Made by a program: the position numbers and the translations under genes. A stretch of DNA of 64,000 bases from a virus (taxonomy: Duplodnaviria; Caudoviricetes). How positions within the stretch are numbered: position 1 is the first letter of the stretch; each line of letters begins with the position of its first letter. Location of the stretch: positions 1,462 to 65,461 of the IMG/VR virus record IMGVR_UViG_3300035070_003918. One strand, given 5' to 3'. A model generated the notes under the pieces. The model did no database searches. It worked only from the letters and a program-made list of their open reading frames with translations, and was not told the origin of the DNA. Positions 1 through 21,877 of the stretch are shown here, piece by piece.

Positions 1-270
1 ATCGAACGTCGACAGTACAGTCACGAGCGCCGGCAACGAGCCCTCAGAGCCAACGCTCACAACGAATCGTGCGCGCCTTGGCTGCGCCCCACGCCATAGC
101 TGCGCCCCGGTGTCGAGCGCCTTGACGAAGTGCGCGCTCTCGCACTCCGCGATCAAGTGGTCGAGCGCAACGAGCGCCGCCGAACGACGGTCGAAGTGCT
201 CGCGCCATCGCTGCAAGGCGTGGGGCGTGACGAACCAACGGCCTCGCGCTCCTTCTTTCGGCGCCACCAC
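1..270 (-). CDS. Small phage protein with T-x-HA-x-x-R motif (partial, runs off the window start)
   Basis: Own translation (not in the ORF track): ...WFVTPHALQRWREHF...RARFVVSV...LVTVLSTFD; similar to 30751..31089. Confidence 0.55.
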   Translation of the reverse strand, partial: MVAPKEGARGRWFVTPHALQRWREHFDRRSAALVALDHLIAECESAHFVKALDTGAQLWRGAQPRRARFVVSVGSEGSLPALVTVLSTFD

Positions 271-680
271 TCCCGACTCTTCCGTCTGCGCCCGCACCGA
301 GGATGCATCGTAGGCACCTTGCCCATCCGATGCGACGGCAACACCGGTGCCCCGCACTCGAGGCACGCTCGGCCGCGCGCACGCTTCGCCCTTCGCTCGT
401 CCGCAGCTACGAGGCACCTTGCTCGGTGCTCCGCGTACAGCACGGGATCCGCCCTGCGCTCGGCTGCTCTCCGTCGAGCCCGAGCCAGCACATGCTCGTG
501 CCCGACGTCGCCGCGTCCAACGGTCTTCGCCCGCTCCTTGTTCCACCACCATTGAAGGATCCACGCGACCTCCCGGATCATGTACTCGTGTTGAGCATCG
601 TCGAACAGCTCGACGATCTCTTGCTGCCTTGCCTCGTCCCTCGTCCACGGCCTCAGCACATCGTCAATGGGACGAAGCAC
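153..680 (-). CDS. Hypothetical basic protein with CxxC
   Basis: Directly downstream of csf3; CLECG motif; start uncertain. Confidence 0.45.
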   Translation of the reverse strand: MLRPIDDVLRPWTRDEARQQEIVELFDDAQHEYMIREVAWILQWWWNKERAKTVGRGDVGHEHVLARARRRAAERRADPVLYAEHRARCLVAADERRAKRARGRACLECGAPVLPSHRMGKVPTMHPRCGRRRKSREWWRRKKEREAVGSSRPTPCSDGASTSTVVRRRSLRSTT

Positions 681-1312
681 GGCTGCTCCTCATGCCTGCG
701 CCAGTACGGGTAGGTGATGCACGACATCCCGCGGTCCGCATCCGCTGAGACGCCGCTCACGTCATCGGGCAGGGGACGCAGAGGCATCCCATCGCGCAGC
801 ACCGGGAACCCCAGCCACGGCGCCACCTCTGCCACCTCCCATTGCCTCACCGCGCCGAGCCCCACCGCGCGCTTCTTGCCGACGTACGAGACGAGCCCAA
901 GCAGCGACTCGACCTCGGCTCGTTCCCCAACGCACCACCACGTCACGACGTCGTCGACCGCGTGGAACGTGGCCAGCGGGATCCGGTAGCTCTTCGTCAG
1001 CCCTGCCGTGATGTTGATCCGCCGCAACTTCGGCCCGGCCATGACCTGAGCCTCCGTCGTCGGGAAGCGACGATTGAGCCACCGCAACTCGGTCTCATCG
1101 ATCGCGCAGTGCCCGGCGCTCGCGAGGTGGAACCGCCCACACTCCGACCGCGCAACAGGGATCTCGATGGGCACTACCTCGCGCCGCGTGAGCGCCGGTT
1201 GCACCCCGTCGCGCATGGCCACGGCGTACGCGAGCAGGGCGTCCAGCATCACCGGCCGGTCCGGCATACACAGCGCCCCTCGGATATGCGCGCGCACCTC
1301 GAGCGGTCTCAT
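653..1312 (-). CDS. csf3: Type IV CRISPR Cas5-like RAMP (Csf3)
   Basis: ATG at 1312 overlaps the csf2 stop (ATGA); LDALLAYA N-terminal motif, G-loop YVGKKRAVGLGAV, RPLP and PYW motifs. Confidence 0.88.
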   Translation of the reverse strand: MRPLEVRAHIRGALCMPDRPVMLDALLAYAVAMRDGVQPALTRREVVPIEIPVARSECGRFHLASAGHCAIDETELRWLNRRFPTTEAQVMAGPKLRRINITAGLTKSYRIPLATFHAVDDVVTWWCVGERAEVESLLGLVSYVGKKRAVGLGAVRQWEVAEVAPWLGFPVLRDGMPLRPLPDDVSGVSADADRGMSCITYPYWRRHEEQPCFVPLTMC

Positions 1313-2334
1313 GCGTCGACCGACTTTAGGAAGTCCACGATGCGGCTCCTTCGGGCCTCCACGTGGCTCCTGAAGAGAGCCCCCATGCTCGGAGCGAGCG
1401 CCGTCGGGTCGGCGTCCGTCACCGCCTCTCGAGGCCGCGCAAGCTCGAGCCCCCACCCCTTCACGGCACGCATCCGACCGTGCCCCGTGCCACGCTTGCC
1501 TCCGACCACTGCGTTGCCGAGGAACGCGGCGCACGACACGTGCAGCGTGTCGATCTCGAGCGGTGTGTAGCAGTTCGCCTGCACCGCCCAGAAGAAGAGC
1601 GACCCCTGCGCCACGCGCTCGAAACGGCGCGGCATCATGCTCGACTTCTCCTTGTCCTTCTCCACGTGCTCGGCTGCGACCGACGCGCGCTCGTGCGCAG
1701 CGAGGCGATTCGTGGCCTTCACCTGCTCTCCGTCCGTGAGTAGCTTTCGCTTCTCGGGGCTCATGGTCGGATCCATCCTGACGCGCTGCTCCTCTTCGAT
1801 GTGCTCTCTCGACCCGGCCAGCGCGCCATAGCGATCCTCAGACCATGCCCGCGCACGCTCGGTGATGAAGCCTTGCGTCTCCTGACAGATGAGCGTGGCA
1901 TCCTCCACCGAGAGGCGCCCTGGCACGATTCGGTTCGTCGCGCAGCCTCCCAGCAGCGCCATGCTGGGCACGAGCTCGCAAAGCTCGCGGTACGCATCCA
2001 GGTTGACCGTGCCCGCCCCGTCGCCGCCGGACACCGCGCCCCCCGCGAACAGCAGGCGCAACGCAGCCTCCGAAAGCTGCGGGTTATCGACCATTCCGAG
2101 CGCATCCAAGAGCGCGTAGGCCGACGCCTCGCGCATCCCGTGGCGCATTGTGTCCGCTGTCACGATCGGCACGAAGGCCCACCCGTCGCGCTGACGGATC
2201 TTCCGCCGCATCGAGATCGACTCGTTGCCGATGTTCTCCGAGTGGTGCGCGATCGGGGTGTCGGCCTCGAGCACGAACTCGTATCGGATCCTCGTCAGCG
2301 TCTGCTTGCTCTCCGTCGTCGTTCCGTCACCCAT
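1309..2334 (-). CDS. csf2: Type IV CRISPR Cas7-like backbone RAMP (Csf2)
   Basis: TPIAH, VPIVTADTMRHGMRE, LLFAGG, PSMALLGG, C-terminal G-loop VGGKRGTGHGR. Confidence 0.92.
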   Translation of the reverse strand: MGDGTTTESKQTLTRIRYEFVLEADTPIAHHSENIGNESISMRRKIRQRDGWAFVPIVTADTMRHGMREASAYALLDALGMVDNPQLSEAALRLLFAGGAVSGGDGAGTVNLDAYRELCELVPSMALLGGCATNRIVPGRLSVEDATLICQETQGFITERARAWSEDRYGALAGSREHIEEEQRVRMDPTMSPEKRKLLTDGEQVKATNRLAAHERASVAAEHVEKDKEKSSMMPRRFERVAQGSLFFWAVQANCYTPLEIDTLHVSCAAFLGNAVVGGKRGTGHGRMRAVKGWGLELARPREAVTDADPTALAPSMGALFRSHVEARRSRIVDFLKSVDA

Positions 2335-2704
2335 GGGCCGCCTCCTGTCGTGCGTCTCTTCGGTCCTCTGCGATCTTTCGCGCCATCGCGAGCAGCAACG
2401 TCAGGTCACGCTCCACGACGTCGAGGCACACGCGCTGCCCCGTCTCTCGCGCCTCGTGGCTCAGCGCCAACAGCGCCGAAGAGGCCGAGCTGCTCAACGA
2501 TGGGAGTTGCAGCCCTCGGCACAACATCGTCACCCACTCGTCCGCTGTCGATGCTCTCCGCGCTGCGCTCAGGCTCCGGTTCTGCAACTGGTCCCAGTGC
2601 TTCAACGGGCTTGCCCCGTTCCTCAGGTACGCCGCTCGGATCTCGAGCAACATCTCCACCAGGACCGTCCTCAGTCGCTCTCTTTGCTCTTCGCTTGCCG
2701 CCAC
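2327..2704 (-). CDS. cas11: Type IV-B small subunit (Cas11-like)
   Basis: 125-aa helical protein between csf1 and csf2; its end overlaps the csf2 start. Confidence 0.75.
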   Translation of the reverse strand: MAASEEQRERLRTVLVEMLLEIRAAYLRNGASPLKHWDQLQNRSLSAARRASTADEWVTMLCRGLQLPSLSSSASSALLALSHEARETGQRVCLDVVERDLTLLLAMARKIAEDRRDARQEAAHG

Positions 2705-3467
2705 TCGCCGCCTCCTTCTTGGTCTTCTTCGCGTCCTTCTCGGCCGTCATGCGAGCGGCCACCTGCTCCTCGTTGCGCTGCGACAGCCACAACGCGAGCG
2801 CGAACCAATCCCCACCGCGTAGCCGTCCGTGGCGTGACTCGAACGCCTCGATCTGCGCGCGGCACATGCCCCACGCCCTCGGCGTGTAGTCGCCGCGCTC
2901 GATCTCGTCCTTCGTCGCGCCAGCGGTAAGCAGCGCCGACAGGTCGTCGACGATGGCCCACCCGGCAGCGCTCGGCAGCGTCAAGTTGCGCTCCTCGAAT
3001 CGCACGCGCCCGCGAGTCGTCCCCGCTGGGTTCACGGTCGCGTACGGGAGCACGTGCTTCTGTCCGCTGTCAGCGATGGCCGCAAACCACGGCCCTCGCT
3101 TCGGTTCGCGCAAGAAGGCCAGGATGAGCGGCTTCTCACCCTTGCTCGCCACCACATGCCCGCGACCGTCGTACAGGTGAGAGAAGTTCGACCATCGCGG
3201 CCCCTCTTTCTTCCCCGGTGCAGGCGGCTTCCCGGGGACCGGCGAGTAGCGGGCGCGGACGAAGGCGCAGCACACGCACGCGTGCGCAGACTCGGGCGAT
3301 CGGAACGATGTCTGATCGGTCATCGTCGGTCCGATGAACTCACCGAGCGGCACCCCTCGCGTCGACTCCCCACCGCAGATCGCGCACGGCTCTCGGTCGT
3401 GGTCGACCGCGCGCTCGTCATCGACTCCGTCAAGGCGAGAGCACACCTCCTGTACCGCCGACTTCAC
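2406..3467 (-). CDS. csf1: Type IV large subunit (Csf1/Cas8-like)
   Basis: Zn-finger CAICG...CVCC, SGQKHVLP motif; GTG at 3467 follows a GAGGAGG RBS (alternative GTG at 3602). Confidence 0.82.
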   Translation of the reverse strand: MKSAVQEVCSRLDGVDDERAVDHDREPCAICGGESTRGVPLGEFIGPTMTDQTSFRSPESAHACVCCAFVRARYSPVPGKPPAPGKKEGPRWSNFSHLYDGRGHVVASKGEKPLILAFLREPKRGPWFAAIADSGQKHVLPYATVNPAGTTRGRVRFEERNLTLPSAAGWAIVDDLSALLTAGATKDEIERGDYTPRAWGMCRAQIEAFESRHGRLRGGDWFALALWLSQRNEEQVAARMTAEKDAKKTKKEAASGGKRRAKRATEDGPGGDVARDPSGVPEERGKPVEALGPVAEPEPERSAESIDSGRVGDDVVPRAATPIVEQLGLFGAVGAEPRGARDGAARVPRRRGA

Positions 3468-3598: not shown

Positions 3599-5314
3599 TC
3601 ACGCGGCCCTCCTCGCAAGCTGCTCGAGGTACGCCTCGGCCAGCTTCAGCACGTGATCTGGCGCGGTCGTGAGCTGCTCGAGCAGTGGCGCATCGGGATC
3701 GCGCACACGCTCGACCTGGCCGCGCTTCAGGCCGAGGACGTCGGCGATGATCGGGTCCGAGCCCGAGTCCGACACCAGCATGTAGAGCATCACCGGCTCC
3801 TTCTGCCCGTCGCGGTGGAGCCGGCCCCCGCATTGCTCCATCGCTCCAGGACTCCAGTCGAGCTCGCCGAAGACGCCCGTGCGGCAGACGTGCTGGAGGC
3901 CGTCGAGGCCCGCTCCGGCACGCAGCGACACGACGAGGACCTTGGCCTTGCCCTCCGTGAAGGCGGCAACCGAGCTGGCCTTCTGCGTCGAGCTCTCGGC
4001 GCCGGTGTAGAAGACCACGCCTAGGTCCTCCAGGGAGGACGCCCAGATCCGGTAGACCTCCTTGTGCCAGCCGAAGAGGACGACGGGTTCTCCGCTCTCC
4101 ACCAGCATGCGTACGAACCGGGCGACGAAGGGGGCCTTCGCGATGCCAGTTGCCTGCCGCAGGCGGTAGTCGAGTTCCTCGCTCGCCTTCATCTTCGCGA
4201 AGCCACCGGTGCCGCTGGTCGACAGGATGAGCCGCGCAAGCTCGGCAGCCGACTGCTCCACACGCTTCAGCTCGTCGAGGTCCGCGTCGACGTGGTGCAT
4301 GACCACGCTCGCGGCCGGCAGCTCACGACCGACATCCGATCGCGTGCGGCGGAGCATGAGCCCGCTCTCTCGCAGGTAGGTGCCGAAAGCGCGCGGGTCT
4401 TTGATCTTCGCCTTCCGCTCGTCGAAGGACGAGGTGCACCATTCCGTCCTGAACTCTTCCTTCTCGCCGAGCTCGGTCGGCGCGAGCACGCTGAGGACCG
4501 ACCAGAACTCGATCCCGTAGTTGTAGATGGGCGTCGCGGTGAGCCCGAGCCGGTACTCGGCCTGCTCGGCGATCGATTTGGCCGCGGCGTACTTCTCCGA
4601 GACGCTCCTCCCGGTACCGACCCGCAGCTCCTGAGCCTCGTCGAACACGACGCTCCGCACGCGTCCGGCGAGGACGTCCGACCACCCGGCGAGCTTGTGG
4701 TAGTTCGAGATGATCACGTCGGGGAACCCGTCGAAGAGCGCTCCCTGCCCTGGCTTGTCGATCGTCAGCGGGTACGGCTTGGCGCCCTTCAGGACGTGGA
4801 CGTGGAGCCCGGGCGCGAAGCGGGCGAGTTCGCGCTTCCACTGCTCTGGCAGGTGGGTCAGCGTGACGACCAGCGCCGGCCGTGTCTCTGGCTCGACGAG
4901 TCCGCAGATCGCCGACGCGGTCTTCCCTACGCCCAGGTCGTCGGCCAGGAGGAGCGAGCGCCGGCGAAGCCACATCTCGGCGGCGATCTTCTGGTACTCC
5001 CGGGCGGGCACCGCGAGCTCGAAGGCTCGGGGCGCCGAGCTGCCCGCCATCAGCGCGGCCACTTCGCGCGCGACGTGCTGGTGGTGCTTGGAGCGCGCGA
5101 CGAGGTGGTCCCGGTCCGAGAACTCGAGCGGGAAGCGCTGGGAGAACCAATCGAGCTCCCGGCACACCTCAGGCGTATCCCTGAGGTGCAGCTCCTTCGT
5201 CTTGCCCTTCGCGAGACGCCCGAAGACGCGCTTCATCCGCATCAGGACGTGCGGCGGCGCCGTCACGACCCACTGCCCGCCGACGAGGCGCGCCTCACCC
5301 ATGGCGGCGCTCAA
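3599..5314 (-). CDS. SNF2-family SF2 helicase
   Basis: LLADDLGVGKT, VFDEAQ, LTATP, GLDGLQ, QCGGRLHRDGQ. Confidence 0.92.
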   Translation of the reverse strand: MSAAMGEARLVGGQWVVTAPPHVLMRMKRVFGRLAKGKTKELHLRDTPEVCRELDWFSQRFPLEFSDRDHLVARSKHHQHVAREVAALMAGSSAPRAFELAVPAREYQKIAAEMWLRRRSLLLADDLGVGKTASAICGLVEPETRPALVVTLTHLPEQWKRELARFAPGLHVHVLKGAKPYPLTIDKPGQGALFDGFPDVIISNYHKLAGWSDVLAGRVRSVVFDEAQELRVGTGRSVSEKYAAAKSIAEQAEYRLGLTATPIYNYGIEFWSVLSVLAPTELGEKEEFRTEWCTSSFDERKAKIKDPRAFGTYLRESGLMLRRTRSDVGRELPAASVVMHHVDADLDELKRVEQSAAELARLILSTSGTGGFAKMKASEELDYRLRQATGIAKAPFVARFVRMLVESGEPVVLFGWHKEVYRIWASSLEDLGVVFYTGAESSTQKASSVAAFTEGKAKVLVVSLRAGAGLDGLQHVCRTGVFGELDWSPGAMEQCGGRLHRDGQKEPVMLYMLVSDSGSDPIIADVLGLKRGQVERVRDPDAPLLEQLTTAPDHVLKLAEAYLEQLARRAA

Positions 5315-5820
5315 GCGAACCTCTGCACGTGAACGACGCGCACGGGCTTCCCGGCGAGGTCATCGGGAGCACGCAGGCGCAGACTCGTCGAGACGAGGAC
5401 GACCCCGTCCACGCGCTCGACGCAGGCATAGCGATGGAGCTGTCGCAGCACATCGGCTGGCGAGCCCTGGATCTTGAGCTCCACCGCGACCCCGCGGTCG
5501 TCTTCGGTGGGGACGAAGAAGTCGCAGCGGCCGGCGGACCCGAGCTTCACCTCGCGGGTGGCCTGCACCTCCGACGCCTCGAGCGCGAGTGCCACTCCGG
5601 CCTGGAGGTCGGCCTCGGTGGCCCATCCGAATCGAAAGCGGCCTAGCGCAGCGGCGACCTGCGCCATGGTCTCGAGCGTGGCAATGAGCGCGGCGTCCCT
5701 GGCGTTCGCGACCTCGGCGATGGTAGCAACGCCTCCGTCGTGGTCGACCGACTGCACGATCACCGGCCCACGATAGCTACGACCACGAATGAACCACGGT
5801 CCCGGCGTGTGCCCGCTCAT
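5311..5820 (-). CDS. PD-(D/E)XK-family nuclease with N-terminal HTPGPW module
   Basis: E...REV...RCDFFV...VAVELK...QLHRYA pattern. Confidence 0.7.
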   Translation of the reverse strand: MSGHTPGPWFIRGRSYRGPVIVQSVDHDGGVATIAEVANARDAALIATLETMAQVAAALGRFRFGWATEADLQAGVALALEASEVQATREVKLGSAGRCDFFVPTEDDRGVAVELKIQGSPADVLRQLHRYACVERVDGVVLVSTSLRLRAPDDLAGKPVRVVHVQRFA

Positions 5821-6863
5821 CGCTCCGCCCTTCGTGACACGAGGGTCCAGCCGTCGAAGAGGGGCTCTCCTTGGCCATTCAGAGCCAGGAAGTGCTCCCC
5901 GGTGCCATCGATGGCCCACACGCGGCTGTTGCTCTCGAAGATGCGCTTCACGGTCCAATCCTTGCCGTAGTTGCTCCACACATCCCCGACCCGCACCACG
6001 CGATCATCCGCCGGCTTCTCCTCGGTCTTCGCGGCCGGCTTCTCGGCCTTCGAGCCGCGCAGCAACGCGCCGTCGCGATTGAGCCGGCGCAGCTCGCGCC
6101 GCTGGCGGGTGACCTTGGCGCGGAGGTTCTCGGCCTCTGCTTGCGTGATGAGCAGCGCCACCTCGTTAATGGCTCTGGACACCTCTACCGACTTCGCCGC
6201 CCGCATCTCACGACGCCCGGCCTCCTCGCTCCACGCGTCGCGCTCGGCTCGGATGCGCTCGAGCTCGGCCTCGGCGTCCCGGCATCGCGCACGCCAAACC
6301 GCGGCGTCGTACTTGGTCTGCCCGGCCTCGATGAGGTGAGGCTCTGCGCGCACCCGGTCGAGCTCGCCGACGACGCGGCGCAACTCGGCGCGCAGTGCCT
6401 CGCTCAGGCGCTCCGCATCCTCCGCACGGCTGGCCAGGCGCTCCACGAACTCGCCGAATGACTCCTCATCCCTGGCGCCGAACCGCTTGCGCAGTTCCAG
6501 AACACCTTCCTGCTCCGCGGCTGCAATGGACTGTAGCTCGACGACGTGAGCCTCCGCTTGCTCCGCCCGCTTCCTCATGGCTTCGGCGTCCTTGATCAGA
6601 TCGTTGGCCGATCGGCTCGCGTTGCGCGCGTCGTTGTGCACCCGGTCGCGCAACTCGTCTCGCTCCCGCTCCGCCTTCTCCGCGCGTTCCTTCATCCCGA
6701 TGTAGTCGTCGAGCTCGACAGCCGGCGCACCGAGACCAATGCGCGCCGCGCGGTAGGCTGCGCCGCCGAGCTTGATCACGCTCTCCAGGTAGTCGACGCG
6801 GGCACGAAGCTCATGGCACTCGACGATCAGTCGGTCTCGGCTCGCCTTTGCTTGATCCTGCAT
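5817..6863 (-). CDS. Coiled-coil phage protein
   Basis: Long E/R/A heptad-rich ORF within an overlapping gene chain. Confidence 0.7.
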   Translation of the reverse strand: MQDQAKASRDRLIVECHELRARVDYLESVIKLGGAAYRAARIGLGAPAVELDDYIGMKERAEKAERERDELRDRVHNDARNASRSANDLIKDAEAMRKRAEQAEAHVVELQSIAAAEQEGVLELRKRFGARDEESFGEFVERLASRAEDAERLSEALRAELRRVVGELDRVRAEPHLIEAGQTKYDAAVWRARCRDAEAELERIRAERDAWSEEAGRREMRAAKSVEVSRAINEVALLITQAEAENLRAKVTRQRRELRRLNRDGALLRGSKAEKPAAKTEEKPADDRVVRVGDVWSNYGKDWTVKRIFESNSRVWAIDGTGEHFLALNGQGEPLFDGWTLVSRRAER

Positions 6864-21063: not shown

Positions 21064-21148
21064 GGCGTGGCACTTCGCGGCAGGGACGTGCTCGGCACGG
21101 ATGGGCGTGGACCGGTTTGGCTTGGCGAGGCATGGACCCTTCAATGGG
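21064..21148 (+). repeat. Phased (GGH-NN)15 array 1 plus terminal hairpin; candidate guide ncRNA
   Basis: GGCGT GGCAC ttCGC GGCAG GGACG tGCTC GGCAC GGATG GGCGT GGACC GGTTT GGCTT GGCGA GGCAT GGACC, then CCC-TTCAAT-GGG. Confidence 0.85.
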
Positions 21149-21162
21149 CACTGGGAGAGACC

Positions 21163-21765
21163 ATGAAGATCATGAAGTTCAGGGTACGAATCGACAGCGA
21201 GCGACCCATCATCATCCAGAGCGATCGGCTGGTCGATCCACTCGACCCGATGAGCATCGAGAAGAGGCGGCTAGCCAAGCACAAGGACAAGGCGAGCGAG
21301 GCCTTCCAGGCAGACATTGGCAGGATCGAGTGGTTCGGCGCGCTCTACCTGGACGACGACTGCAAGCCGAGGCTCGCGATCCCGTGCGACAACATCTTGC
21401 GCGCGATGCGCGACGCCGCTGCGCGAGAGAAGCTCGGTGAGACGGTGAAGCGCGAGGTCACCATCGATCCTCCGCTGATCGACTTCCTGGACCACGGTGG
21501 CCCAAAGGATCTCGAGGCGATGTATGCCGACCCGAGGTTCGTTCTGCGCAAGTCGGTCGCTCAGCAGAAGGCGCGCGTGATGCGCGTACGCCCGCGTCTG
21601 CCCGTGTGGGCGCTCGAGTTCACCATGACCGTCGGTGGCGCACAGACGCTGACCGCGGACGACGTGAAGCGGATCCTGACGAACGCCGGCATGGTTGGGA
21701 TCGGCACGTGGCGACCTCGCTATGGTCACTTCAAGGTGACCAAGTTTGAGAAGGCCAAGGACTAG
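21163..21765 (+). CDS. Stand-alone RAMP/Cas7-like protein (200 aa)
   Basis: N-terminal strand FRVRIDSERPII, IPCDNILRAMRDAA, RVRPRLPVWALEF, G-loop AGMVGIGTWRPRYGHF; GGGAGAG RBS. Confidence 0.82.
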   Translation: MKIMKFRVRIDSERPIIIQSDRLVDPLDPMSIEKRRLAKHKDKASEAFQADIGRIEWFGALYLDDDCKPRLAIPCDNILRAMRDAAAREKLGETVKREVTIDPPLIDFLDHGGPKDLEAMYADPRFVLRKSVAQQKARVMRVRPRLPVWALEFTMTVGGAQTLTADDVKRILTNAGMVGIGTWRPRYGHFKVTKFEKAKD

Positions 21766-21779
21766 AAGTTTCGGCTCTG

Positions 21780-21877
21780 GGCTCGGCCGGGCGCGGCACG
21801 GCACGGCAGGGCGGGGCACGGAGCGGCCCGGCGGGGAGAGGCACAGCAAGGCAAGGCAAGGTCCCTTTCTACAGGGA
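21780..21877 (+). repeat. Phased (GGH-NN)17 array 2 plus terminal hairpin; candidate guide ncRNA
   Basis: GGCTC GGCCG GGCGC GGCAC GGCAC GGCAG GGCGG GGCAC GGAGC GGCCC GGCGG GGAGA GGCAC aGCAA GGCAA GGCAA GGTCC, then TCCCT-TTCTAC-AGGGA. Confidence 0.9.

What the first reader, a model, noticed from the sequence alone, without database searches (positions are those of the whole stretch)
653..3467. Phage-borne type IV-B-like effector operon with no array, cas6, adaptation genes or visible cysH
csf1-cas11-csf2-csf3 sit as coupled genes in the early leftward operon. Established: type IV-B loci usually lack arrays, usually carry a cysH-like gene, and have no resolved function. Here the two genes after csf3 and the gene before csf1 are not CysH-like, although one could lie beyond position 1. 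Possible roles are crRNA sequestration (anti-CRISPR) or use of a non-canonical guide.
Basis: partly seen in the sequence, partly recalled or inferred. Interest (0 to 1): 0.72.

Follow-up and report, generated by a model that had tools for sequence, protein, structure and literature searches.

The report
Phage type IV-B CRISPR cassette, complete
A tailed phage carries a genuine array-less type IV-B CRISPR-like gene set whose "missing" cysH-like gene lies just outside the window, plus two small extra genes and a clamp-docking tail that give testable clues to what this enigmatic CRISPR subtype does.

Summary
The four genes are real. PADLOC profiles type them as Csf1, Cas11, Csf2 and Csf3 (E 2e-23, 9e-7, 4e-40, 1e-38). 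They are tightly coupled, on a contractile-tailed phage contig.

"No visible cysH" is a window-edge artefact. The window starts at base 1462 of its 65,461-bp record. A PAPS-reductase-family gene lies at record 740-1459, starting 3 nt left of window position 1. All 8 related loci compared carry csf2-csf3-cysH-like. The core is therefore an ordinary type IV-B cassette. Phage-borne IV-B is in print, and this scan noted it before in at least 82 genomes.

No array, Cas1, Cas6 or DinG-type domain was found in the record. However, it ends 739 nt past cysH.

Two leads go beyond the ordinary:
- **Two genes between csf3 and cysH.** They are a zinc-ribbon protein and a 92-aa RelE/ParE-fold protein. The latter follows csf3 in 9 of 10 further loci and occurs fused to Csf3 or to Cas6.
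- **The Csf1 tail.** It carries QLGLF, a sliding-clamp-type docking motif.

Function remains unknown. I found neither lead in print.

The parts
2406..3467 (-). csf1 (type IV large subunit, 353 aa). It has a CxxC...CxCC zinc-finger region and a long low-complexity C-terminal tail. An alternative start is GTG 3602, which overlaps the SNF2 stop.
   Evidence: PADLOC Csf1_0_IV E 1.8e-23. TIGR03114 E 5e-6, below its cut-off. Start and ribosome-binding site. Frame support. Relatives are 37-49% identical.
2478..2492 (-). QLGLF motif in the Csf1 tail, 23 residues before the stop. It has the form of a sliding-clamp docking peptide. The consensus QL[SD]LF is recalled, not taken from a call.
   Evidence: own Csf1 has QLGLF. 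L012 and L035 end in QLGLFGDG. L027 and L028 have QLDMF. Looser forms occur in L010, L025/L033, L009 and L011. L004-L008 lack it. Q[LM]x[LM]F lies in the last 35 aa of 5 of 1,076 six-frame open frames of at least 150 aa, and all 5 are Csf1 frames.
2327..2704 (-). cas11 (type IV small subunit, 125 aa). Its first ~100 codons are overlapped, in another frame, by the csf1 tail.
   Evidence: Six PADLOC typeIV_Cas11 models match, the best at 8.7e-7. Third-position GC favours this frame. Relatives are 36-50% identical.
1309..2334 (-). csf2 (type IV Cas7 backbone subunit, 341 aa).
   Evidence: PADLOC Csf2_0_IV 4.4e-40. TIGR03115 5.7e-9, below its cut-off. PDB 7JHY Csf2 E 1.2e-8. phrog_22746. 607 homologues with E <= 1e-3 in metagenome proteins.
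653..1312 (-). csf3 (type IV Cas5, 219 aa). Its start overlaps the csf2 stop as ATGA.
   Evidence: PADLOC Csf3_0_IV 1.3e-38. TIGR03116 8.4e-17, below its cut-off. PDB 8RC3 Csf3 1.7e-8. Start.
153..680 (-). orfA (175 aa). It has a C-terminal CxxCG...C zinc ribbon followed by a basic, tryptophan-rich stretch. It overlaps csf3 by 28 nt and orfB by about 115 nt.
   Evidence: ORF; frame. No family match. A zinc-ribbon ORF sits in the same position in L012 and L029. The zinc ribbon is fused to the orfB domain in P0124, P0129, P0131, P0136, P0158, P0237 and in L027/L028 (read by eye).
1..270 (-). orfB (92 aa; record 1456-1731, stop at 1453-1455, so it runs 6 coding nt plus the stop beyond window position 1). 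It is a RelE/ParE-fold protein with the motif GRWFxTPHAxxR...LWRGPKPxRxR.
   Evidence: AlphaFold model, pLDDT 81. Foldseek best hit HigB 5ycl_B, E 0.027, probability 0.96. VIA-align Z 8.5 to 5.0: by their titles, 25 of the 26 chains with Z >= 5 are toxin-antitoxin, CDI or colicin toxins. The family has 435 cluster representatives. It follows csf3 in 9 of 10 loci. It occurs fused to Csf3 or to Cas6.
1..1 (-). Marker only. The cysH-like gene (CasCysH, 239 aa) lies outside the window at record G000:C1:740-1459, minus strand. Its ATG is 3 nt left of window position 1 and overlaps the orfB stop by 7 nt.
   Evidence: PF01507, 33.2 bits against a cut-off of 22.5. phrog_2302, 2e-17. The PP-loop GKDS is invariant in 6 of 6 aligned relatives, and no cysteine is conserved. 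22 of 27 listed strain differences at record 1289-1445 fall on third codon positions.

Best explanation
**What it is.** This is a complete, canonical type IV-B CRISPR-Cas effector cassette carried by a contractile-tailed phage. It is a seven-gene translationally coupled operon: csf1-cas11-csf2-csf3-orfA-orfB-cysH-like. The last gene lies just left of the window. The record shows no array, Cas6, adaptation genes or DinG/RecD-type helicase.

**The core complex (by homology to the solved IV-B complex).** Csf2 and Cas11 should form a filament on RNA. Csf3 and Csf1 should cap it.

**What I infer here.**
- orfA (zinc ribbon) and orfB (RelE/ParE-fold domain) are genuine accessory subunits of this IV-B clade. 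They act at the Cas5/Cas6 end of the complex, in RNA handling.
- The Csf1 tail docks the complex on the host sliding clamp.
- The cysteine-less PP-loop CysH-like enzyme supplies an ATP-dependent adenylation or modification step.

**Likely role and what is shown.** The likely biological role is conflict with competing replicons or with host defence. None of the biochemical steps is shown. The gene identities and the gene linkage are shown.
For: **Identity.** Type IV profile matches for all four core genes, similarity to solved type IV subunits, and the PAPS_reduct domain above Pfam's cut-off.

**Architecture.**
- 8 of 8 loci found with Csf2 (7 IMG/VR contigs and Skermania phage SPI1) carry csf2-csf3-cysH-like in this order. 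7 of the 8 also show csf1 and cas11 hits.
- Overlapping starts and stops run through the whole operon.

**Phage setting.** Terminase, portal, protease, major head, sheath, tape measure and baseplate genes, plus RecT and RecE.

**Absences in the 65,461-bp record.** No array and no Cas1, Cas6 or Helicase_C_2 match.

**Selection.** 22 of 27 listed strain differences in cysH lie on third codon positions. Contigs of 4 runs of 4 other studies show no indel in orfA/orfB.

**orfB.**
- Fold.
- It sits directly after csf3 in 9 of 10 distinct loci fetched by an orfB pattern, and also in L012. In L010 it follows cysH.
- Of 11 long family members scanned, 2 are Csf3-orfB fusions, 6 are Cas6-orfB fusions, 1 is an HNH fusion and 2 gave no match.
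- The Cas6 fold of P0213 is confirmed: 19 Foldseek matches with E <= 1e-3. Most of those listed, including the nine best, are Cas6 chains.

**Clamp motif.**

**Literature.** IV-B is described as csf1, csf2, csf3, cas11 and cysH-like without an array, function unknown (PMC7038947, PMC8175902 and PMC13676074, passages read). The solved complex binds heterogeneous RNA (PMC7937560, abstract from a search listing).
Against: - The NCBIfam equivalog cut-offs are not reached and Pfam has no match for the four core proteins. These are distant members.
- Csf2 finds no PLSDB plasmid at E <= 1e-5. This clade is therefore far from the plasmid IV-B loci on which the subtype was defined.
- The record is about 80% complete and ends 739 nt past cysH. 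An array or further cas genes beyond the end are not excluded. One relative (G005) has a Cas12m-like gene and a CRISPR array of 6 clear repeats (a degenerate seventh seen by eye) after its IV-B genes.
- The orfB fold matches are of middling strength (Foldseek E 0.027; VIA-align Z <= 8.5, a range the tool calls common). No nuclease activity is shown.
- orfB is absent from most loci found with Csf2: seen in 2 of 10 (L010, L012), and L011 ends before the place where it would lie.
- The clamp motif is absent from 5 of 14 relatives (L004-L008) and is only loosely kept in 5 others. In the window's own protein it is not terminal.
- No expression data exist.
Confidence: 0.85

Rival explanations
1. The cassette is guided after all. 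It would use crRNAs from an array that lies beyond the left end of the record, or from host or co-resident arrays in trans. In that case it is an ordinary RNA-guided interference module whose array is simply unseen.
For: - The record ends 739 nt past cysH and is 80% complete. A contig of run X2 runs 282 nt beyond that end.
- Relative G005 carries an array of 6 clear repeats with a 37-nt core (a degenerate seventh seen by eye) 2.2 kb past its cysH.
- A Bathyarchaeia virus IV-B locus with a mini-array is in print (PMC10848311, passages read).
Against: - The G005 array lies next to a Cas12m-like gene (PADLOC Cas12u1 6.6e-45; PDB 23vw_A 2e-24). It is most simply that gene's array.
- No array was found in the complete 78.9-kb relative G004, nor in G001 or G003.
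- No Cas6 was found in the record.
- The solved IV-B complex did not take up co-expressed crRNA (PMC8175902, passage read).
Confidence: 0.15
2. One reading: the array-less Csf complex is an anti-CRISPR that soaks up host crRNAs.
For: - The cassette is phage-borne, lies in the replication/recombination gene block, and has no array of its own.
- IV-B is negatively correlated with other CRISPR systems in hosts (PMC7038947, passage read).
Against: - The same paper calls this explanation unlikely because of its complexity.
- It does not explain the strictly linked PP-loop enzyme, the RelE/ParE-fold subunit or a clamp-docking tail.
- The host and its CRISPR content are unknown.
Confidence: 0.1
3. 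orfA and orfB are a hitch-hiking type II toxin-antitoxin pair: a zinc-ribbon antitoxin with a RelE/ParE toxin. They would stabilise the phage or prophage and have nothing to do with the Csf complex.
For: - RelE/ParE-like fold.
- A small upstream gene overlaps the toxin-like gene, as in many toxin-antitoxin operons.
- Toxin-antitoxin modules are common cargo of mobile elements (general knowledge).
Against: - orfB lies directly after csf3 in 9 of 10 loci fetched by its own pattern.
- It occurs without any orfA-like gene in L010, L025, L031 and L033.
- It is fused to Csf3 (P0162, P0229) and to Cas6 (6 proteins).
- In other members the zinc ribbon is fused to it in one polypeptide. That is not how antitoxins are arranged.
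Confidence: 0.1
4. The cassette is decaying cargo without function.
For: It has no array and no nuclease, and the scores against curated equivalog models are weak.
Against: - All seven frames are intact and coupled.
- Strain differences in cysH lie mostly on third codon positions (22 of 27).
- Near-identical DNA is held by 19 runs.
- The module is kept in otherwise unrelated phages.
Confidence: 0.03

Closest known systems
Subtype IV-B CRISPR-Cas of actinobacterial plasmids (Mycobacterium sp. JS623 Csf complex, PDB 7JHY; PMC7937560)
   Same: The gene set csf1, cas11, csf2, csf3 and a cysH-like gene; no array, Cas6, adaptation genes or helicase. Csf2 is the best PDB match. The CysH-like protein keeps the PP-loop and has no conserved cysteine. 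Taylor et al. argue that the catalytic cysteine is lacking in CasCysH (PMC8175902, passage read, cut off mid-sentence).
   Different: This one is phage-borne and very divergent: E 1.2e-8 over only 136 residues, and no PLSDB plasmid hit with Csf2. It has two extra genes between csf3 and cysH and a QLGLF-bearing Csf1 tail that overlaps cas11.
Virus-borne type IV-B: 'Fuxiviridae' of Bathyarchaeia (PMC10848311) and the unannotated cassette of Skermania phage SPI1 (KR011061, Orf40-44)
   Same: A viral genome carrying csf genes with an adjacent CysH-like gene. That paper also states that type IV systems were seen before in prophages and several lytic phages.
   Different: Fuxivirus has a mini-array and an archaeal host. 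SPI1 has cysH directly after csf3 and no orfB, and its Csf2 is only 28% identical.
Subtype IV-A (Csf1/2/3 with Cas6/Csf5, DinG and an array)
   Same: Homologous Csf2 and Csf3 (PADLOC IV-A models also match; PDB 8RC3 and 7XFZ).
   Different: No DinG-type helicase domain, no Cas6 and no array here. Cas11 and the cysH-like gene are present. The neighbouring SNF2 helicase is not kept in any of 8 related loci.
RelE/ParE (BECR) superfamily toxins, including the CRISPR-linked CARF-RelE protein Cami1 (PDB 8PHB)
   Same: The orfB model has two helices followed by a four-stranded sheet. It aligns with RelE1, MqsR, ParE1, HigB, YoeB and the RelE domain of Cami1 (Z 7.5 to 5.8).
   Different: No sequence-level family match. 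It has its own motif (GRWFxTPHA...WRGPKPxRxR). It has no CARF domain. It is linked or fused to Csf3 or Cas6 rather than paired with an antitoxin. Its activity is unknown.
Cas12m (type V-M) with its array, beside IV-B in related phage G005
   Same: It shows that array-bearing nuclease-poor CRISPR modules travel next to this IV-B clade. A IV-B plus V-B3 pairing on a plasmid is in print (PMC12669027, figure legend read).
   Different: No Cas12-like gene or array was seen in this record. The 739 nt left of cysH show no similarity to the G005 gene.

Membership tests
Type IV-B CRISPR-Cas | Csf2 (type IV Cas7) backbone subunit | tested here: met
   PADLOC Csf2_0_IV 4.4e-40. PDB 7JHY Csf2 1.2e-8. The NCBIfam equivalog model matches at 5.7e-9 but scores 35.6 bits against a cut-off of 130.
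Type IV-B CRISPR-Cas | Csf3 (Cas5) and Csf1 (reduced large subunit with a zinc finger) | tested here: met
   Csf3_0_IV 1.3e-38 and Csf1_0_IV 1.8e-23. TIGR03114 matches the cysteine-rich stretch of Csf1 at 5e-6. Both score below the NCBIfam cut-offs.
Type IV-B CRISPR-Cas | Cas11-like small subunit (present in IV-B, absent from IV-A) | tested here: met
   Six typeIV_Cas11 PADLOC models match, the best at 8.7e-7. The gene lies between csf1 and csf2, as in relatives.
Type IV-B CRISPR-Cas | Adjacent cysH-like (PAPS-reductase-family, PP-loop) gene | tested here: met
   Record 740-1459, minus strand. PF01507 scores 33.2 bits against a cut-off of 22.5. It is in the same operon. GKDS is invariant and no cysteine is conserved in 6 of 6 aligned sequences. 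The gene lies outside the window.
Type IV-B CRISPR-Cas | No CRISPR array, Cas6, adaptation genes or DinG/RecD helicase | tested here: inconclusive
   None was found in the 65,461-bp record: repeat scans and family searches for Cas1, two Cas6 families and Helicase_C_2. However, the record is about 80% complete and ends 739 nt past cysH. RecD was not searched as a family.
RelE/ParE (BECR) superfamily (for orfB) | Fold: N-terminal helices packed on a four-stranded antiparallel sheet | tested here: met
   Model pLDDT 81, with H16-26, H32-44 and four strands. Foldseek HigB probability 0.96, E 0.027. VIA-align RelE1 Z 7.5 and ParE1 Z 6.9. The scores are middling.
RelE/ParE (BECR) superfamily (for orfB) | Ribonuclease or gyrase-poison activity and a cognate antitoxin | not testable with these tools
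   H17, R60, R66 and R68 are conserved, but no activity data exist. orfA's role as an antitoxin was not tested.
Beta-clamp-binding proteins (for the Csf1 tail) | Short QL[SD]LF-type peptide at or near a flexible terminus that binds the clamp's hydrophobic cleft (consensus recalled) | tested here: inconclusive
   The motif is present, and it is specific to Csf1 frames among 1,076 frames. Binding was not tested, and the host clamp is unknown.

The most novel reading that the evidence does not exclude
Array-less IV-B systems are not guide-less leftovers but replication-coupled machines.
- Csf1's QLGLF tail parks the Csf filament on the host sliding clamp.
- The zinc-ribbon/RelE-fold module cuts or holds a non-CRISPR transcript to load the filament. 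This module is found free, fused to Csf3, or as the C-terminal domain of a IV-B Cas6.
- The cysteine-less PP-loop CasCysH adenylates or modifies the bound nucleic acid.

Together these would let a phage interfere with the replication of competing replicons or of the host. The orfB domain would then be a previously unnamed Cas component that replaces Cas6 function in this clade.
Probability: 0.15. Interest if true: 0.85.

Novelty: new variant of a known kind. Interest (0 to 1): 0.45.

Why it matters
Type IV-B is a CRISPR-Cas subtype whose function is still unknown. A September 2026 paper still calls its biology unclear (PMC13676074, passage read).

As a plain IV-B cassette with its cysH-like gene, this locus adds only another phage-borne member.

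It adds two concrete handles that I did not find in print (searches; supplements closed):
- A small RelE/ParE-fold protein is genetically welded to the Cas5/Cas6 end of these systems. This points to an RNA-handling or effector step.
- A sliding-clamp-type docking motif sits on Csf1. This points to action at replicating DNA. This scan had already noted it on other phages.

Both can be tested with standard biochemistry in laboratory strains.

Tried and rejected
- **SNF2 helicase as a DinG substitute.** None of 10 upstream window proteins, SNF2 included, matches any of 8 related loci at E <= 1e-3. It is a neighbour, not a component.
- **A link between the Csf cassette and the phage's VIPR cassette (21064-21877).** The Vipr protein was not found with this query in 0 of 10 records that hold IV-B relatives, one of them a complete genome. 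The VIPR preprint does not mention type IV. I dropped the pairing as a recurrent one.
- **Csf3-orfB contact by complex prediction** (alignments A4 and A5). The result was no verdict (score 0.00), so it counts neither way.
- **Expression.** No RNA holder is listed.
- **Promoter, terminator and Rfam scans of the locus.** Nothing above chance.
- **ESM Atlas for orfB.** Only unnamed clusters, all below 0.9.
- **orfA compared with P0124 and with the L012 zinc-ribbon ORF by BLASTP.** Only weak, short matches. The zinc-ribbon likeness rests on reading the motifs by eye.
- **Host.** MAG contigs labelled Betaproteobacteria and Cellvibrionaceae hold relatives. The major head protein finds only about 31%-identical matches in 10 of 301 genomes of that class. 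The host stays unknown.
- **Lifestyle.** No integrase or repressor was recognised among the 10 ORFs scanned. Whether the operon is "early" is inference from its position.
- **What lies left of the record.** A 38-mer from the left end finds no other IMG/VR contig. Other assemblies run past the end, but their letters are not shown.
- **A frameshift or assembly error joining orfA and orfB.** No indel is present there in contigs of 4 runs of 4 other studies. The split is real in these assemblies. A programmed frameshift is not excluded.
- **The long csf1/cas11 overlap as chance open frame.** The overlap length varies from 50 to about 560 nt among relatives, but the conserved terminal motif argues that the tail is translated.
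- **Supplementary files.** They are closed. The locus tables and figures of PMC7038947 and the CRISPRicity tables of 10.1101/270033 could already list the orfB gene or the IV-B Cas6 fusions.

Full report
**Where the window lies.** The window is bases 1462-65461 of a 65,461-bp linear IMG/VR virus record estimated 80% complete. It is 65-70% G+C. The plus-strand block at 35-63 kb encodes a large terminase, portal, head protease, major head protein, tail sheath, tape measure, baseplate hub and wedge (PHROGs). The minus-strand block at the left end encodes RecT- and RecE-like proteins and an SNF2 helicase. So this is a contractile-tailed phage, and the finding sits at the far end of its replication/recombination gene block. 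I recognised no integrase or repressor among the ORFs I scanned. "Early operon" is an inference from position.

- Four minus-strand ORFs at 2406-3467, 2327-2704, 1309-2334 and 653-1312 match type IV profiles in PADLOC: Csf1 1.8e-23, Cas11 8.7e-7, Csf2 4.4e-40, Csf3 1.3e-38.
- NCBIfam gives the same names for Csf1, Csf2 and Csf3, but all score well below the curated equivalog cut-offs. Pfam has no match. These are distant members.
- Against solved structures, Csf2 best matches the Csf2 of the type IV-B complex 7JHY (1.2e-8, N-terminal 136 residues). Csf3 matches Csf3 of 8RC3 and 7XFZ. Cas11 and Csf1 find nothing.
- Third-position G+C supports these frames.
- csf1 most likely starts at GTG 3467 (GAGGAGGG upstream; the profile alignment begins at residue 19). 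This leaves 131 nt after the SNF2 stop. A GTG at 3602 overlapping that stop is the alternative.
- The other junctions overlap by 8, 4 and 28 nt.

**The missing cysH is a window-edge artefact.**
- A family search of the whole record finds PAPS_reduct at record 890-1048.
- The ORF at record 740-1459 (239 aa, minus strand) scores 33.2 bits against Pfam's cut-off of 22.5 and matches phrog_2302.
- Its ATG is 3 nt left of window position 1 and overlaps the stop of the preceding gene by 7 nt.
- Six aligned homologues keep GKDS of the PP-loop and an R..E..AR stretch but no cysteine. Taylor et al. argue the same for CasCysH (PMC8175902, passage read, cut off mid-sentence).
- In contigs of other runs, 22 of 27 listed differences at record 1289-1445 fall on third codon positions of this frame. 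That is the pattern expected for a gene under purifying selection.

**Relatives.**
- With Csf2 as query, 7 IMG/VR contigs (52-56% identity), one cultured phage (Skermania phage SPI1, 28%, genes annotated hypothetical) and two MAG contigs were fetched.
- All 8 loci of the first two sets carry csf2, csf3 and a cysH-like gene in that order. 7 of the 8 also show csf1 and cas11 hits.
- Both MAG contigs have csf1 to csf3. One of them ends right after csf3.
- Metagenome proteins hold 607 Csf2 homologues with E <= 1e-3.
- Csf2 finds no PLSDB plasmid at E <= 1e-5.
- The phages that carry the module share almost nothing else with this phage. The cassette therefore moves among unrelated phages.
- Near-identical DNA of this locus is held by 19 runs from freshwater, groundwater, runoff, sludge and wastewater metagenomes.

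**What is absent.**
- Repeat scans find no CRISPR-like array in the window, in the left 2.2 kb, in the 17-kb loci of the relatives, or in the full records G001, G003 and G004. G004 is complete, with terminal repeats.
- Family searches of the record find no Cas1, Cas6 (two families) or DinG-type Helicase_C_2.
- The record ends 739 nt past cysH, so the absence of an array is not proven.
- One relative, G005, does have an array of 6 clear repeats with a 37-nt core (a degenerate seventh seen by eye) 2.2 kb past its cysH. A 665-aa Cas12m-like gene lies between them (PADLOC Cas12u1 6.6e-45; PDB 23vw_A 2e-24). That array is most simply Cas12m's.

**The two genes between csf3 and cysH.** orfA (window 153-680) ends in a CxxCG...C zinc ribbon followed by a basic, tryptophan-rich stretch. 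orfB (record 1456-1731, 92 aa) starts inside the end of orfA. Neither has a Pfam, PADLOC or PHROG match.

- *Fold of orfB.* An AlphaFold model from nine homologues (pLDDT 81) has two helices and a four-stranded sheet. Foldseek's best hits are HigB, RelE, ParE and YoeB toxins, at weak E-values (best 0.027, probability 0.96). The Foldseek-independent aligner gives Z 8.5 for an uncharacterised archaeal protein, then RelE1 7.5, MqsR 7.0 and ParE1 6.9. By their titles, 25 of the 26 chains with Z >= 5 are toxin-antitoxin, CDI or colicin toxins. The tool warns that such Z values are common, so I read this as a probable fold, no more.
- *Size of the family.* A profile search finds 435 cluster representatives (222 at E <= 1e-10). 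Most are 80-130 aa.
- *Fusions.* Of 11 longer members scanned, 2 have an N-terminal Csf3 (Csf3_0_IV 1e-26 and 1e-46). Six have a Cas6-like domain (E 7e-6 to 2e-3 each, several Cas6 models). One has an HNH domain and two have nothing.
- *The Cas6 domain is real.* A model of one Cas6-like fusion (P0213, pLDDT 82) matches Cas6 structures. There are 19 matches with E <= 1e-3. The nine best are all Cas6 at probability 1.00, and the type IV Cas6 6NJY is at rank 13.
- *The zinc ribbon joins it.* Several members carry the zinc ribbon in the same polypeptide (read by eye).
- *Genomic position.* Ten further distinct loci were fetched through an orfB pattern (L025 and L034 are the same contig). The orfB homologue lies directly after csf3 in 9. 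The tenth is a 1,081-nt contig with nothing upstream to judge.
- *What follows orfB.* A cysH-like gene follows in 5 of the 10. Two contigs end first. Two carry instead a 492-aa ORF with a CxxxCxxC motif (by eye, no profile run). One has nothing I could name.
- *Same order elsewhere.* L012 has the same order as this window: csf3, zinc-ribbon ORF, orfB-like, cysH-like. In G005 the orfB homologue follows cysH.
- *The split is real.* Contigs of 4 runs of 4 other studies show no indel in orfA/orfB.
- *Where it is missing.* orfB has no match in INPHARED phages or PLSDB plasmids. It is missing from most loci found with Csf2.

My reading is that this is a clade-specific accessory module of IV-B that belongs to the Cas5/Cas6 end of the complex. 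A free-riding toxin-antitoxin pair is the main rival. That rival fits the fold and the gene overlap, but not the fusions or the fixed position.

**The Csf1 tail.**
- The csf1 frame runs 299 nt into cas11 in another frame. The overlap varies from 50 to about 560 nt among relatives.
- Earlier notes of this scan on other phages reported a sliding-clamp docking peptide at the end of Csf1, so I looked here.
- The window's Csf1 has QLGLF 23 residues before its stop. L012 and L035 end in QLGLFGDG. L027 and L028 have QLDMF. L010, L025/L033, L009 and L011 have looser forms. L004-L008 have none.
- As a control, Q[LM]x[LM]F occurs in the last 35 residues of 5 of 1,076 distinct open frames of at least 150 aa in all six frames of everything I had fetched. 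All 5 are Csf1 frames.
- That the motif is a clamp-binding consensus is recalled knowledge. Binding was not tested.
- I found no paper linking Csf1 to the clamp.

**How it most likely works.**
- *Shown:* the gene identities, the operon structure and the linkage patterns.
- *From established knowledge:* IV-B Csf2 and Cas11 form a filament on heterogeneous RNA (PMC7937560, abstract from a search listing). CasCysH is proposed to adenylate substrates or to make a signal (PMC13676074 and PMC8175902, passages read).
- *Inferred here:* the complex is tethered to the clamp through Csf1. The zinc-ribbon and RelE-fold proteins handle RNA at the Csf3 end. CasCysH supplies the chemistry. The phage uses this against competing replicons or host defence.
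- *Odds:* about 0.85 that the identity and architecture are right, and about 0.15 for the full mechanistic picture.

**Compared with what is known.** The core is canonical IV-B (PMC7038947, PMC8175902). Phage and prophage carriage is in print (PMC7038947; PMC10848311; 10.1101/270033). This scan has noted phage-borne IV-B in at least 82 genomes. The orfA/orfB module and its fusions to Csf3 and Cas6 did not turn up in my searches. Those include two surveys of RelE/ParE and BECR proteins that mention no type IV link in their text. The supplements, which could list such genes, are closed. I therefore rate the locus a variant of a known kind, with an ordinary core.

Noticed in passing
window 21064-21877: A solo Cas7-like gene (21163-21765, plus strand) is flanked by two GGY-NN five-base repeat arrays. 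An earlier agent filed this as a VIPR cassette. I tested only whether it travels with IV-B: the Vipr protein was not found in 0 of 10 records that hold IV-B relatives.
   Followed up: partly
window 2233-2347 (record 3694-3808): In contigs of three other runs (X3, X4, X8), these 115 nt at the cas11 end and csf2 start are replaced by 713 other letters. That is a net gain of about 600 nt between cas11 and csf2 in natural variants. The letters were not shown.
   Followed up: no
L010:10335-12559 and L020:254-686 (virus record G005): A related phage has csf3, cysH-like, an orfB-like gene and a 665-aa Cas12m-like gene, followed by a CRISPR array of 6 clear repeats with a 37-nt core (a degenerate seventh seen by eye). 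The repeat holds a GTGATC/GATCAC palindrome.
   Followed up: partly
L027:3537-5015 and L028:3963-5441: In two metagenome loci, the gene after the zinc-ribbon-orfB fusion is a 492-aa ORF with a CKYKCTFC (CxxxCxxC, radical-SAM-like) motif where cysH would be. This was read by eye and no profile was run. An earlier scan note reports a radical SAM partner in another phage.
   Followed up: no
window 2406-2704: The last ~100 codons of csf1 overlap the first ~100 codons of cas11 in a different frame. The overlap ranges from 50 to about 560 nt in relatives, and the tail carries the QLGLF motif.
   Followed up: partly
window 3599-5979: An SNF2 helicase (3599-5314) and a phrog_5928 protein with a faint NucS-like match (5311-5979) lie directly upstream of csf1. 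Neither is found next to the cassette in 8 related loci.
   Followed up: yes
L003:4873-8506 (Skermania phage SPI1, KR011061, Orf40-Orf44): Genes annotated as hypothetical in this cultured actinophage include a csf2, csf3 and cysH-like set. Orf40 and Orf41 have the sizes and positions expected of csf1 and cas11. I did not run profiles on Orf40 or Orf41.
   Followed up: partly
record G000:C1:1306-1309 (left of the window, in cysH): Contigs of runs X4 and X8 have one base left out at 1306 and one put in behind 1309. This is a compensating pair that changes one or two codons of the cysH-like gene.
   Followed up: no
L010:6195-6330: A 45-nt tandem repeat lies just upstream of csf1 in G005. In frame it reads like a pentapeptide-repeat protein (A-N-L-A-G...), judged by eye. 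It is not a CRISPR array.
   Followed up: no
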